Assembly (NCBI RefSeq): GCF_006345805.1
Contig: NW_021829715.1
Location: 1 to 5,746, forward strand
Origin: Octopus sinensis
Taxonomy: Eukaryota
DNA: 5,746 bases
Direction of reading: 5' to 3'
In this document: positions 1,082-5,746 of the stretch, in pieces
Layout of the letters: every line of letters begins with the position of its first letter
How positions within the stretch are numbered: position 1 is the stretch's first letter
Translations under genes and position numbers: made by a program
Notes under the pieces: generated by a model
The model's database searches: none
Seen by the model: the letters and a program-made list of their open reading frames with translations, nothing else
What the model was told of the DNA's origin: nothing

Positions 1082-1361
1082 GAAAAAAAAACCCATTAAA
1101 ACGACAATCGCCGCACAAACCGCCATTGTTCCCATTGTGATTTCTCTCATCTGGTTCAGTCGCTGGTTGAATAAGACATGGTCATGTCCAAAGAGAAGTC
1201 TCACGTCAACAGTGAATGAATGTACTGTTAGCAGTGGTGAATAGTGGTAAGGGTGGTGTGCGTATGGTGGTGGTTGTCTGTCTATGTGTCGCTATTGTTC
1301 GCTGGTGGGATCGGCCGTGTTGTTTACTTTTTCTCTTTCTGCTGTTATTACGTATACATAT
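1082..1361 (+). repeat. Unclassified interspersed repeat, copy A (inverted relative to 4722-5000)
   Basis: Collinear reverse-complement matches: 1097-1109 with 4976-4988 (13 bp exact), 1162-1178 with 4904-4920 (17 bp exact), 1328-1361 with 4722-4755 (34 bp exact), with diverged sequence between. Confidence 0.9.
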
Positions 1362-2108: not shown

Positions 2109-3760
2109 CTGATTTGTGGATAGTGTGAAGTCCCCTCTCGACCCAAAATAACGTGGTGGTGGAACCATGTTGTTGACAGGGCTATTAGAGAAAAGAGACA
2201 GGCTTGGAAGGACTGGAAGAACGGTAGTAGCAGAGAATTGTATCAGACTGCAAGAAGGGAAGCTAGGAGACAGGTTTATTTAGCCAGAGGGGAAGCAGAT
2301 AAGAAAAAATTTGCCAATGTTCTGCGCCGTGAGGACCAAAGACTTGAGGTATTTCGTGTTGCAAGACAGTGTGTGAGAGAGAATTGTGATGTGGTGGGAG
2401 AGAAGTGTGTTCGCATGGATGATGGTTCACTTGCGCTAAATGAGGATGCAAAGAGAGAGGTTTGGAGCTGCCACTATGAAAGGTTGCTCAATAAAGAAAT
2501 TGAATGGGAGAATGAGAGTCTGCCAAATGTCGAGCCAACAGAGGGACCAGCTATCCGAGTTGATAGTTCCATGGTAAATAAAGCAATTAAGAGTATGAAG
2601 ACAGGGAAAGCCCCAGGCCCATCAGGAATCACTACAGAGATGCTCAAAATATCTGGCAGTGTCGGCTATAGCCTAGTCACCCGTATAGTTAACCAGGTGA
2701 TACACAAAGGAGTCATACCCAATGACTGGTGTAGTAGCATAATAGTCAACTGCTACAAAGGTAAAGGTGACGCTTTAGATACAAATAATTACAGAGGTAT
2801 CAAGCTGTTGGATCAGGTAATGAAGGTCACGGAGAGGGTCATAGCCCAACTGATTAGGGAGAGAGTCAGTTTAGATGAAATGCAGTTTGGGTTCGTGAGA
2901 CGCTGTCAGTAAGGTGGGGGCTGGCAATGAGTACAGTGAAGAATTCCGGGTAGAAGCAGGGGTCCACCAAGGTTCAGTCCTCAGACCCCTCCTATTTATC
3001 ATAGTCCTCCAGGCAATAACAGAGGAGCTGAAGACAGGATGCCCCTGAGAGCTCCTCTATGCTGAAGTAGTTGATAGCTTCCGCTACCTAGGTGACCAAG
3101 TCAGTAGTGGGAGAGAGTGCGCTGAAAGTGTAGTTGCTAGAGTAAGAATAGCTTGGGCAAAGTTCAGAGAGCTCTTACTTCTACTGATAACAAAAGGCCT
3201 CTCGCTCAGAGTAAAAAGTAGACTGTATGACGCATGTGTACGAACAGCCATGCTACATGGTAGTGAAACATGGACCGTGACTGCTGAGCACATGCGTAAG
3301 CTCGCATGGTTGAAGCAAGTATGATCCGATGGATGTGTAATGTCAGTGTTCATATTCGACAGAGTGTAAGTACCTTGAGAGAAAAGTTGGACCTAAGAAG
3401 CATCAGCTGTGGTGTGCAAGAGAGACGATTGCGCTGGTATGGTCATGTGGCGAGAATGGATGAAGATAGCTGTGTGAAAAACTGCCACACACTAGCGGTT
3501 GAGGGAACCTGTGGAAGAGGTAGATCCAGGAAAACCTGGGACGAGGTGGTGAAGCACGACCTTCGAAAATTAAGCCTCACTGAGGCAATGACTAGTGACC
3601 AAGACCTTTGGAAATATGCTGTGCTTCAGAAGATTCGGCAAGCGCAAGTGAGACCATAACCTTGTGGCCTATGCCAGGGGTGTAACCATTCCACTTATGC
3701 GTACCTTTCCTTCATTGGACACTAAACTCTGCTTGCAAAGACCTGTTGAGGCAAGTGAAA
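2109..3760 (+). mobile_element. RTE-clade non-LTR retrotransposon (LINE) fragment; 5'-truncated, internally deleted, non-functional
   Basis: Translation [34 protein letters not shown]..., KAIKSMKTGKAPGPSGI..EMLK, IPNDWCSSIIVNCYKGKGDALDTNNYRGIKLLDQVMKVTERVI, QFGF, GVHQGSVLRPLLF, LLYA, FRYLG, ARVRIAWAKFREL, HGSETW, RRLRWYGHVARM, GRGRSRKTW. These are RT and C-terminal motifs typical of RTE elements. About 100 nt of probable 3' UTR follows the stop at 3659; the right boundary is approximate and no TSD or tail is seen. Confidence 0.93.
2124..3659 (+). pseudogene. Disrupted RTE reverse transcriptase ORF
   Basis: Three pieces: 2124-2897 (frame 3), 2899-~3309 (frame 1, internal TGA at 3046-3048 at a Trp position) and ~3312-3659 (frame 3). 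Upstream TAG at 2121-2123. No endonuclease domain; deletions at ~2897 and ~3065. Confidence 0.9.
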
Positions 3761-4399: not shown

Positions 4400-5000
4400 G
4401 CTACAGGACGTCACCAGCTGTCCAAGCAACATGAGATACGTAAAAACAAGACAAATAAACACAGAGAAAGGACCCTTCATCAGTTGTCGGCTGTCTAGCT
4501 ACTCCTCATTTCGAGCATTCATGGACAATATGAGTAAACAAAGATAGTTGCTCCCATAAATTCTAAAATAAAATTTAGGATTTACGGAGGGTGTTAATTT
4601 TGGACAAAAACAGGACAGTGAAGACATAGAAGGAAACCGAACGAAAAGAACATGGTCGTCAGAAGAGAACGAGAGGAAAATAGTGAACGCTTGGAGAAAT
4701 ATTTTGTTTGAATATGTGTGTATATGTATACGTAATAACAGCAGAAAGAGAAAAAAAGATGTTCCCACCAGAGAACAATAGCGACACACAGACATACAAT
4801 CACCCCACTCTTACTACTACTACTACTCTCCACTGCTAACAGAACATTCATTCCCTCTTCATGTCGGTCCTTAAGACCACCAAAAACAATACGGAAATGA
4901 ACGTGTCTTATTCAACCAGCACGTTGTGATTTAGCTGAGAATAATCACAATGTGAACAATGGTGGTTTGTGCGAAGATTGTCGTTTTAGGGATTTTTTTC
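4400..5000 (-). repeat. Unclassified interspersed repeat, copy B (possibly Penelope-like terminal-repeat derived)
   Basis: 4722-5000 is the inverted homolog of 1082-1361 (well supported). 4400-4721 is contiguous, T-rich on the minus strand and carries CGAAA...GACAACTGATGAAGGG. Its inclusion in the element and the Penelope link are inference. Confidence 0.6.
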
Positions 5001-5303
5001 TCCTCCTGTTTTCCCGTGACTGCTTTTAATGAAGTATCCTTTGAGTTTCGTAATTTTGAAGCTGGAAAAAAACATTCTCCTCGCCGGTTTACACGGTTTC
5101 TCGTAAGATTCCTAAAGCTTTCTTTCCTAATACTCAGGCGTTTCAAATTATCCTTGGATTTCTCCTTATACCATAGAAGTGGTCGGCCGAGATTTCGTCG
5201 GGAAATTTTGAAGCTAACTACGGAAGTTTCGTTTTCCTCTTCGATCATTCTTCATGCGAAGGATGTGTCCATACAATTGTATTTGAGACGGGATTAAGAA
5301 AGT

Positions 5304-5484
5304 TGATTTGCAACATGCAAAAAAATAAATAAAAAAGCTAGTTGCACCGATAACCAGCTAGCGGAGAATCTGCCTGGGGTTAAACGTGTAGTACCAGTTT
5401 GATGTGGCGACTGGCTGTACTACTTTACTACTCTATTTCTTCTCCTGATTTTACAACTAGCTTTATTTTACTTGTTACAAACCA
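5304..5484. repeat. Decayed nested foldback / long hairpin
   Basis: Nested arms: 5304-5322/5466-5484 (15 of 19 Watson-Crick), AAAGCTAGTTG 5334-5344/CAACTAGCTTT 5454-5464 (perfect), GGAGAA 5363-5368/TTCTCC 5440-5445, GTAGTAC 5388-5394/GTACTAC 5417-5423, CAGT 5395-5398/ACTG 5410-5413. Confidence 0.75.
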
Positions 5485-5545
5485 GTGACCAATGGTCACT
5501 TTGTTTATGATATATTGTTAGCGGTCTCTGGCTATCGCTCTGGCG

Positions 5546-5610
5546 TGCAGGTCGTTGCGACTGAGGATGGGCCAAAAAGCTTGAAACTGAATCAGTGTCG
5601 CGATCCTGTA
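5546..5610 (+). ncRNA. Type I hammerhead ribozyme-like motif (non-canonical GUG at cleavage triplet)
   Basis: Stem I GTTGCGA 5554-5560/TCGCGAT 5598-5604, extended past a 2-nt bulge by TGCAGG 5546-5551/CCTGTA 5605-5610. Core CTGAGGA 5561-5567; extra T 5568; stem II GGGC 5569-5572/GCTT 5579-5582 with loop CAAAAA; GAAA 5583-5586; stem III ACTG(A) from 5586/(T)CAGT to 5596; position 17 = G5597. All three helices are in exact register with the CUGANGA/GAAA/U core. Confidence 0.75.
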
Positions 5611-5746
5611 ATCTGCTAAAGGTAATAGGGTTCCTTCCGTCTGCTAACAATACACTGAAAGGCAAAAGAAACGCGAGACGCGTGTGACTGTGAAATATGT
5701 TTTAATTTCATTATGTCAGAGATAATTCTGATAATCTTATAAGGTC

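What the first reader, a model, noticed from the sequence alone, without database searches (positions are those of the whole stretch)
5546..5610. Type I hammerhead ribozyme fold with a palindromic stem III and a GUG cleavage triplet
Seen: CUGAGGA and GAAA boxes with stems I, II and III all pairing in exact register, a bulged extended stem I, an extra U between A9 and stem II, and a near-palindromic stem III (ACTGA-A-TCAGT). Established: type I hammerheads with short palindromic stem III occur in metazoan Penelope-like elements and non-LTR retrozymes and can cleave as dimers. Deviations: G at position 17 breaks the NUH rule (it can pair with C3), and the stem II closing pair is G-U rather than G-C (TG in place of CG, compatible with CpG decay). 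Inference: a decayed or variant copy of a cephalopod ribozyme-bearing retroelement family.
Basis: partly seen in the sequence, partly recalled or inferred. Interest (0 to 1): 0.85.

Follow-up and report, generated by a model that had tools for sequence, protein, structure and literature searches.

The report
Decayed hammerhead in a retrozyme copy
This is a real but mutated hammerhead ribozyme inside one old copy of a 360-base repeat scattered through this animal genome, and the way the copies are inserted suggests a small self-cutting RNA that was likely pasted around by Penelope-type retrotransposon enzymes.

Summary
The type I hammerhead fold at 5546-5610 is real (0 of 2000 shuffled windows match). 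It lies in one copy (5339-5657) of an interspersed family with a 360-nt head-to-tail unit. The odd GUG site is private decay: position 17 is C in 78, U in 16 and G in 2 of 96 family rows. The G-U closing pair is CpG decay. The extra U and the 11-nt palindrome are family features.

Copies carry Penelope-type footprints. Their 3' ends pile up at two sites (73 of 107 segments), mostly into microsatellites, and none lies at the cleavage site. 5' ends are ragged, 19 of 19 inverted neighbours are head-to-head, and 42 segments exceed one unit. No internal ORF was found. The majority unit is predicted to fold as a strongly self-paired circle (z -7.5). A collinear, much younger sister family (352 nt, copies 97-99% alike) shows the same architecture.

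Verdict: a dead copy of a non-LTR retrozyme lineage for which eight literature searches found no description, likely mobilised by Penelope-like enzymes. Cleavage, circular RNA and the helper element are not shown.

The parts
5339..5657 (+). Single, slightly sub-monomeric, circularly permuted copy of the 360-nt repeat (unit positions 267 to 248), 87.5% identical to the majority of its nearest subfamily
5304..5345 (-). Short, degraded inverted piece of the same unit (about positions 41-70) abutting the 5' end, head-to-head
   Evidence: weak: nhmmer 2.9 bits, E 0.007; same arrangement in 19 of 75 family loci
5546..5610 (+). Type I hammerhead motif; 9 of 65 bases differ from the subfamily majority (5553, 5554, 5556, 5570, 5577, 5582, 5591, 5597, 5610)
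5561..5568 (+). C3-A9 box CUGAGGA plus the family-conserved extra nucleotide (U in 71 of 89 rows)
5569..5582 (+). Stem II and 6-nt loop; family GAGC-CAAAUA-GCUC, here with two G-U pairs and a changed loop base
5586..5596 (+). 11-nt near-palindrome forming stem III (4 bp + 3-nt loop as monomer, 10 bp as dimer); its 3' arm can alternatively pair with the CUGA box
   Evidence: predicted folds
5597..5597 (+). N17 cleavage-site base: G here, C in the family
   Evidence: C 78, U 16, G 2 of 96 rows
5509..5543 (+). 5' arm (approximate) of the long helix predicted to carry the hammerhead at its tip
5613..5653 (+). 3' arm (approximate) of the same long helix

Best explanation
The motif is a mutated hammerhead ribozyme in one old, likely dead copy of a 360-nt protein-free repeat that likely spread as a non-LTR retrozyme using Penelope-like reverse transcriptase and endonuclease in trans. 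Shown: multicopy family, exact head-to-tail unit, intact GUC hammerhead in all four large subfamily majorities, fixed 3' ends, ragged 5' ends, head-to-head inverted pieces, microsatellite 3' flanks, no ORF, and a young collinear sister family with the same layout. Inferred steps: (1) a locus with two or more units is transcribed; (2) two hammerheads cut out a unit-length RNA, probably as a double hammerhead joined through the palindromic stem III; (3) a host ligase closes it into a rod-like circle (about 0.6; an uncleaved multimer is the alternative template); (4) a Penelope-like endonuclease nicks an (AT)n-type tract, and its reverse transcriptase starts at a preferred site about 173 nt downstream of the cleavage site (or about 45-57 nt further on), runs through the ribozyme and often past one full unit, then stops at random or switches strand. 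The window copy has one ribozyme, G17 and changed loop bases, so it would not yield a circle and would cleave slowly if at all.
For: Family: 40 of 40 scored candidates match; first-look candidates 118, 1055 and 1176 (candidates are not copy numbers). Unit of 360 nt with an exact junction. Of 107 non-redundant segments, 44 end within 8 nt of unit position 360 (5.1 expected) and 29 at positions 41-59 (5.6 expected); 0 3' ends and 3 5' ends lie at the cleavage site (6.2 expected each), and 0 and 0 of 33 segments from loci fetched with a non-ribozyme query; 42 exceed 365 nt, longest 715. A microsatellite follows 53 of 81 ends in the preferred zone (positions 345-60) versus 5 of 26 other ends; 19 of 19 adjacent opposite-strand pairs in 75 loci are head-to-head. 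Partial tandems, inverted 5'-truncated copies, a tail and microsatellite bias are the PLE hallmarks described in 10.1101/2021.04.23.441226 (passages). Majority unit as a circle: -139 kcal/mol, z -7.5 against 100 shuffles. The four large subfamilies keep an identical core, vary at N7 and in loops, and 8 of the 9 pairs that differ among them stay standard pairs, including one C-G/U-A swap. Sister family: global alignment score 83.5 against a shuffle maximum of 20.5 in 300, ribozyme in register, N17 173 nt from the main 3' end in both; copies 97-99% alike; 44 of 48 segments end at two sites, one insertion spans 3.2 units; 25 of 28 ribozymes intact. Size, type I ribozyme and self-paired circle match the mussel and coral retrozymes of PMC7229834 (parts 2-4 read).
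Against: No cleavage, circular RNA or transcription is shown. Published retrozymes often form long tandem arrays; this family showed at most about 2 units in the loci examined. No helper element was identified: none of 29 other loci of the commonest GIY-YIG family carries the unit, and among 30 further GIY-YIG loci only one (L179) holds a related unit, more than 1 kb upstream of the GIY-YIG match. No covariation above shuffles in the first 30-copy ribozyme alignment; the excess comes from an alignment fitted to the structure. The end counts are partly shaped by the queries and by where I cut the model. Only the 40 best candidates per search were scored.
Confidence: 0.8

Rival explanations
1. 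The unit is the pseudo-LTR of an autonomous Penelope-like element not found here, and the copies are its 5'-truncated ends.
For: PLE insertion hallmarks. In L013 the unit is fused directly behind a GIY-YIG frame on the same strand. Retrozymes and pseudo-LTRs are related in Xenopus (10.64898/2026.07.22.740005, parts 1-3 read).
Against: Upstream of a unit lies another unit in exact register, up to 715 nt, not an ORF end. L013 is 1 of 75 loci and interrupts that PLE's frame shortly before its usual stop; 0 of 29 other copies of that PLE carry the unit. No shared non-repeat 5' flank was found. Pfam on 145 of 154 flanking frames found only two GIY-YIG hits, L013 and an opposite-strand one in L025.
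Confidence: 0.12
2. The window copy is a functional G17 variant retained by the host, for example a slow ribozyme in a transcript or intron, like the amniote HH9 motifs.
For: All core bases and all helices can still pair; best Rfam match is HH9; G17 variants keep 1/8 to 1/100 of the rate in tertiary-stabilised hammerheads (PMC3884650, parts 1-2 read).
Against: 9 of 65 bases differ from the subfamily majority (86%), the same decay as in the whole copy (87.5%). Loop 1 and loop 2 bases are hit. 38 of 105 rows also keep the core, as expected from neutral decay. In the predicted dimer the window copy pairs G17 instead of forming the double hammerhead. No host gene is evident in the 5.7-kb contig.
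Confidence: 0.04
3. The unit spread as a SINE-like passenger of a LINE (RTE/CR1 type) or as satellite DNA by recombination, not through Penelope enzymes.
For: LINE fragments are common near copies (RVT_1 and zf-RVT hits); no Penelope partner was identified.
Against: Head-to-head inverted 5' pieces, two fixed 3' ends a 'tail' apart, run-through of the unit junction and dispersed placement fit PLE-type integration. No long arrays and no poly(A) tails were seen.
Confidence: 0.04

Closest known systems
Metazoan non-LTR retrozymes (mussel 350-390 bp, coral 220-240 bp, axolotl 330/350 bp; PMC7229834)
   Same: Unit size, one type I hammerhead per unit, no ORF, head-to-tail repeats, GC under 50%, strongly self-paired predicted circle, coexistence with Penelope-like elements.
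   Different: Mostly dispersed 5'-truncated insertions of 0.3-2 units rather than long arrays; longer stem III (4 bp, 11-nt palindrome); conserved extra nucleotide after A9; circular RNA not shown; no sequence comparison with those families was made.
Pseudo-LTRs of endonuclease-bearing Penelope-like elements with minimal hammerheads (PMC4209133; 10.1101/2021.04.23.441226)
   Same: Partial tandems, inverted 5' pieces, tail, microsatellite targets, an unpaired base 5' of stem II, palindromic helix III.
   Different: No RT/GIY-YIG ORF; canonical 4-bp helix II and a long bulged helix I instead of a 7-8 bp helix II and a 4-5 bp helix I.
Rfam Hammerhead_HH9 (RF02275)
   Same: Best-scoring Rfam model; same topology, 6-nt C-A-rich loop 2, bulged stem I.
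   Different: 21-25 bits against a gathering score of 52; multicopy and decaying rather than single-copy and ultraconserved (the latter recalled, not from a call).

Membership tests
Type I hammerhead ribozyme | CUGANGA and GAAA boxes with three helices, open helix I | tested here: met
   86% of cells paired in 30 copies against 27-36% for slid registers
Type I hammerhead ribozyme | NUH cleavage triplet (window copy) | tested here: not met
   GUG in the window; the family majority is GUC, with C or U in 94 of 96 rows
Type I hammerhead ribozyme | Self-cleavage 3' of N17 | not testable with these tools
   needs an in vitro assay
Type I hammerhead ribozyme | Covariation in helices | tested here: inconclusive
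   none above shuffles; excess in the model-fitted alignment (46 against 27 cells), which leans towards the structure
Non-LTR retrozyme | Unit of about 150-450 nt with one type I hammerhead, in head-to-tail arrangement | tested here: met
   360-nt unit; 42 of 107 segments longer than one unit; several loci hold two ribozymes in register
Non-LTR retrozyme | No ORF and no LTR-flanked body | tested here: met
   in 75 sampled loci; PBS and polypurine tract were not searched for separately
Non-LTR retrozyme | Highly self-paired predicted circular RNA | tested here: met
   z -7.5 for the majority unit; z -8.8 for a natural sister-family unit
Non-LTR retrozyme | Expressed as linear and circular unit-length RNA | tested here: inconclusive
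   only assembled contigs of runs guessed to be RNA were available; they cannot show circles or strand
Non-LTR retrozyme | At least two complete ribozymes in consecutive units (activity criterion of the 2026 preprint), window copy | tested here: not met
   one ribozyme in the window
Autonomous Penelope-like element | RT plus GIY-YIG ORF between pseudo-LTRs | tested here: not met
   1 chimeric locus of 75; 0 of 29 other copies of that PLE family carry the unit
Penelope-type integration | Partial tandem, inverted 5'-truncated neighbour, tail, microsatellite bias | tested here: met
Rfam Hammerhead_HH9 / Hammerhead_1 | Score at or above the gathering threshold | tested here: not met
   21.4 and 25.1 bits against 52 for HH9; no hammerhead family at gathering level in 18 loci

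The most novel reading that the evidence does not exclude
These dispersed insertions are a fossil record of how animal retrozymes move. A Penelope-like enzyme primes at (AT)n tracts from a fixed point about 173 nt past the cleavage site of a circular RNA and rolls through the ligated junction, a geometry kept between an extinct and a recently active family. In the older family the monomer locks itself by pairing its CUGA box with the 3' arm of stem III and C17, and is released only as a double hammerhead, which would explain how a circle avoids cutting itself open.
Probability: 0.3. Interest if true: 0.65.

Novelty: new member of a known kind. Interest (0 to 1): 0.42.

Why it matters
The flagged oddity (a GUG hammerhead) is ordinary decay. 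The family matters moderately. That animal retrozymes are moved by Penelope-like elements is a standing hypothesis resting on co-occurrence and sequence kinship (PMC7229834; 2026 preprint). Here the insertions themselves show Penelope-type footprints and read through the cleavage junction. A young sister family with mostly intact ribozymes, and Penelope-like frames of about 780 codons without stops in the same genome, make the helper, the circular template and the priming site directly testable.

Tried and rejected
(1) Pseudo-LTR of the abundant GIY-YIG/RT family seen in L013: 0 of 29 other loci carry the unit; rejected. With about 7000 first-look candidates for that family, one adjacency can also be chance.
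(2) G17 as a subfamily trait: rejected.
(3) Insertions made from cleaved linear monomers: no ends at the cleavage site; rejected.
(4) Covariation in the first 30 ribozymes: none above shuffles.
(5) Two passes within one insertion share 36 of 224 non-majority bases against 8.8% for controls: a weak excess that does not separate a circle from a tandem source.
(6) Sequencing runs: no RNA holder listed. Four coded runs, all contigs and only guessed to be RNA, hold family pieces at mostly 80-95% likeness, and one contig crosses the unit junction. This is equally explained by genomic partial tandems, so it is not used as evidence on expression.
(7) Monomer 'lock': an inactive monomer fold is also predicted for the sister family's ribozyme (gap 6.3 kcal/mol), so the monomer gap alone is not special. 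The double hammerhead equals the dimer minimum energy for the four large subfamily majorities (in one as a tie with another fold), but not for the small subfamily, the window copy, six decayed natural copies or the sister family. Nearest-neighbour models ignore loop-loop contacts.
(8) The U6 snRNA copy inside a family copy (L020) is a later insertion with its own 14-nt duplication, not a ligation at the cleavage site.
(9) An exact 35-letter core pattern matched only 2 places, consistent with an old family.
(10) Earlier findings: none returned.
(11) Literature: eight answered searches gave no description of a cephalopod retrozyme; the squid genome paper lists 235 Rfam hammerhead-1 loci without analysis (passages). 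The supplement of PMC7229834 and one supplement file of PMC4209133 could not be read, the preprint supplements were not seen, and repeat databases were not available; the family may be listed there.
(12) Protein comparison of two frames in the window's inverted pair found nothing.

Full report
Observation. A type I descriptor allowing any N17 finds only this site in the window and none in 2000 block-shuffled windows. Rfam's best non-microsatellite match is Hammerhead_HH9 at 21.4 bits, below its gathering score of 52. The isolated 65-mer is not unusually stable (z -1.6). The window is a whole 5746-nt contig of a 2.72-Gb genome. No call names the organism; an octopus is my inference from recalled genome features.

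The family. A 161-nt query gave 118 first-look candidates, of which 40 were scored and all matched at 73-83% apart from the self hit. Longer or different queries gave 1055 and 1176 candidates; these are not copy numbers. Among the first 29 other copies, position 5597 is C in 24, T in 5 and G in 0, and position 5582 is C in 23. In the larger set N17 is C 78, U 16, G 2 of 96 rows, and the extra base after A9 is U in 71 of 89. So G17 and the G-U closing pair are private decay, while the extra U and the palindrome belong to the family. An unpaired base 5' of stem II is already known from Penelope minimal hammerheads and a viroid hammerhead (PMC4209133 part 1; PMC1636495 passages). The window motif differs from its subfamily majority at 9 of 65 bases, including loop 1 and loop 2 positions. 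Copies are 86-90% identical (medians) to their subfamily majority, at most 93%, so the family is old. 38 of 105 rows spanning the motif keep all core bases and NUH, and 12 of those have at most one broken pair.

Anatomy of the element. The sequence downstream of the ribozyme runs on into the sequence found upstream, giving a 360-nt head-to-tail unit. The window holds positions 267 to 248 at 5339-5657, plus a weak inverted piece at about 5304-5345. I mapped all family loci on a tripled profile, removed duplicates, hits under 50 bits and one reverse hit caused by self-complementarity, leaving 107 segments in 75 loci. 44 end within 8 nt of position 360 and 29 at positions 41-59 (about 5 expected each). 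None ends at the cleavage site (position 187), also not among 33 segments from loci fetched with a query lacking the ribozyme. 42 are longer than one unit, the longest 715 nt. A microsatellite follows 53 of 81 ends in the preferred zone against 5 of 26 others. All 19 adjacent opposite-strand pairs are head-to-head, 3 of them with overlaps inflated by self-complementarity. The queries and my choice of model boundary influence the end counts, but they do not force copies to stop at those bases. These are the insertion features described for Penelope-like elements (10.1101/2021.04.23.441226, passages).

Selection on RNA structure. The majority unit folds as a circle at -139 kcal/mol, z -7.5, with a long helix carrying the hammerhead at its tip. 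Four large subfamilies have an identical core and differ at N7 and in loops. Of 9 pairs that differ among them, 8 remain standard pairs, and one is a full C-G/U-A swap, probably a single event. Within dead copies covariation is not expected and was not seen in 30 ribozymes; the excess in 91 model-aligned ones is biased by the fit.

Is it a pseudo-LTR? One locus, L013, joins a GIY-YIG frame (Pfam PF01541) directly to the unit over a 3-nt microhomology. That RT/GIY-YIG family is abundant (7064 candidates), but none of 29 other copies carries the unit. Flank comparisons and Pfam on 145 of 154 flanking frames show no shared body. L013 is either a template switch or a chance insertion. Among 30 further GIY-YIG loci none ends in the unit. 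The helper remains unidentified. A Penelope-like family with frames of about 780 codons without stops is present, and two of five printed 3' flanks run into (AT)n, which is a lead only.

A young sister family. A second hammerhead repeat noticed beside a PLE copy has 2823 candidates, the 40 scored at 97-99% apart from the self hit, and a 352-nt unit. 44 of 48 segments end at two sites 43-46 nt apart, followed by (AT)n; many have head-to-head inverted pieces and one spans 3.2 units (the query included one of these ends, but the unselected inverted pieces mostly end at the same sites). It aligns collinearly with the old family (83.5 against at most 20.5 in 300 shuffles), with N17 173 nt from the main 3' end in both. 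25 of 28 ribozymes are intact. No PLE frame adjoins it except at the seed locus (downstream of that PLE's ORF) and one weak hit.

Mechanism. Shown: the architecture above. Inferred from PMC7229834 (parts 2-4 read): multimeric transcript, self-cleavage, ligation by a host ligase, reverse transcription by a Penelope-like enzyme. Because insertions cross the cleavage site intact and exceed one unit, the template was a religated circle or an uncleaved multimer, not a cut linear monomer; I put the circle at about 0.6. Predicted only: in all five subfamily majorities the 3' arm of stem III plus C17 can pair over 6 bp with the bases leading into and including the CUGA box. The monomer's best fold is inactive by 3.6-4.8 kcal/mol in the four large subfamilies, while the double hammerhead equals the dimer minimum for those four. 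The sister family also misfolds as a monomer and does not give the double hammerhead, so this is a hypothesis, not a result. For the window copy, G17 would lower the rate 8- to 100-fold rather than abolish it if the loop contacts were intact (PMC3884650 parts 1-2), but these loops are mutated and there is no second ribozyme.

Expression. No RNA holder was listed, and contigs cannot show circles; nothing is concluded.

Known or new. It works like, and meets the sequence-testable criteria of, a non-LTR retrozyme; the RNA criteria are untested. It is not an autonomous Penelope element and not an Rfam HH9 member. Eight literature searches found no description in cephalopods; unread supplements (and those of the 2026 preprint) and repeat databases might list it. 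The 2026 preprint (parts 1-3 of 5 read) argues the Penelope link from distribution and phylogeny, mainly in vertebrates, not from insertion structure. Verdict: new member of a known kind; the flagged GUG site is decay; interest 0.42, carried by the family architecture and the testable young sister family.

Noticed in passing
L073:109-562 and L123-L152: Young 352-nt hammerhead repeat family, collinear with the window's family, copies 97-99% alike, 2823 first-look candidates, up to 3.2 units in one insertion (L151).
   Followed up: partly
L179:24-421: A diverged unit matching the sister family (119 bits) and weakly the window's family (11 bits), with an inverted neighbour; possibly a third family.
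   Followed up: no
L013:869-1757: GIY-YIG frame of an abundant Penelope-like family fused on the same strand to a family copy over a 3-nt microhomology; possible template-switch chimera.
   Followed up: partly
L020:1069-1410: Full-length U6 snRNA copy fused to an abundant SINE-like repeat, inserted into a family copy with a 14-nt duplication.
   Followed up: partly
L088, L091, L135: Minimal hammerhead-like motifs (CUGACGA box, very short helix III) in another abundant repeat, probably a Penelope pseudo-LTR.
   Followed up: no
L159, L160 and other loci: Penelope-like family with many near-identical GIY-YIG copies and open frames of about 780 codons; some 3' ends run into (AT)n; candidate helper.
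   Followed up: no
window 2124-3660: Broken LINE-like reverse transcriptase frames between microsatellite tracts; RTE-like by recalled resemblance, no Pfam hit for three frames.
   Followed up: partly
window 1082-1360 and 4723-5002: Inverted pair, 72% identical over 297 columns, flanking the microsatellites and the LINE-like fragment; another repeat.
   Followed up: partly
window about 655-750: Piece of an abundant SINE-like repeat shared with about 29 fetched loci; similar repeat ends abut the 5' junction of several family copies.
   Followed up: no
family alignment, N17: U at position 17 in 16 of 96 rows, more than C-to-T changes at other non-CpG core cytosines (4 of 91, 6 of 93); unexplained.
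   Followed up: no
G000:C3:120026296-120029704 (L033-L035): Three near-identical 1.4-1.5 kb blocks in tandem, each holding a family copy with an inverted neighbour; local duplication or assembly repeat.
   Followed up: no
family alignment, unit positions 81-96: 5' ends are enriched just past a small hairpin (15 of 108 in one 20-nt bin), possibly reverse transcriptase stalling.
   Followed up: no
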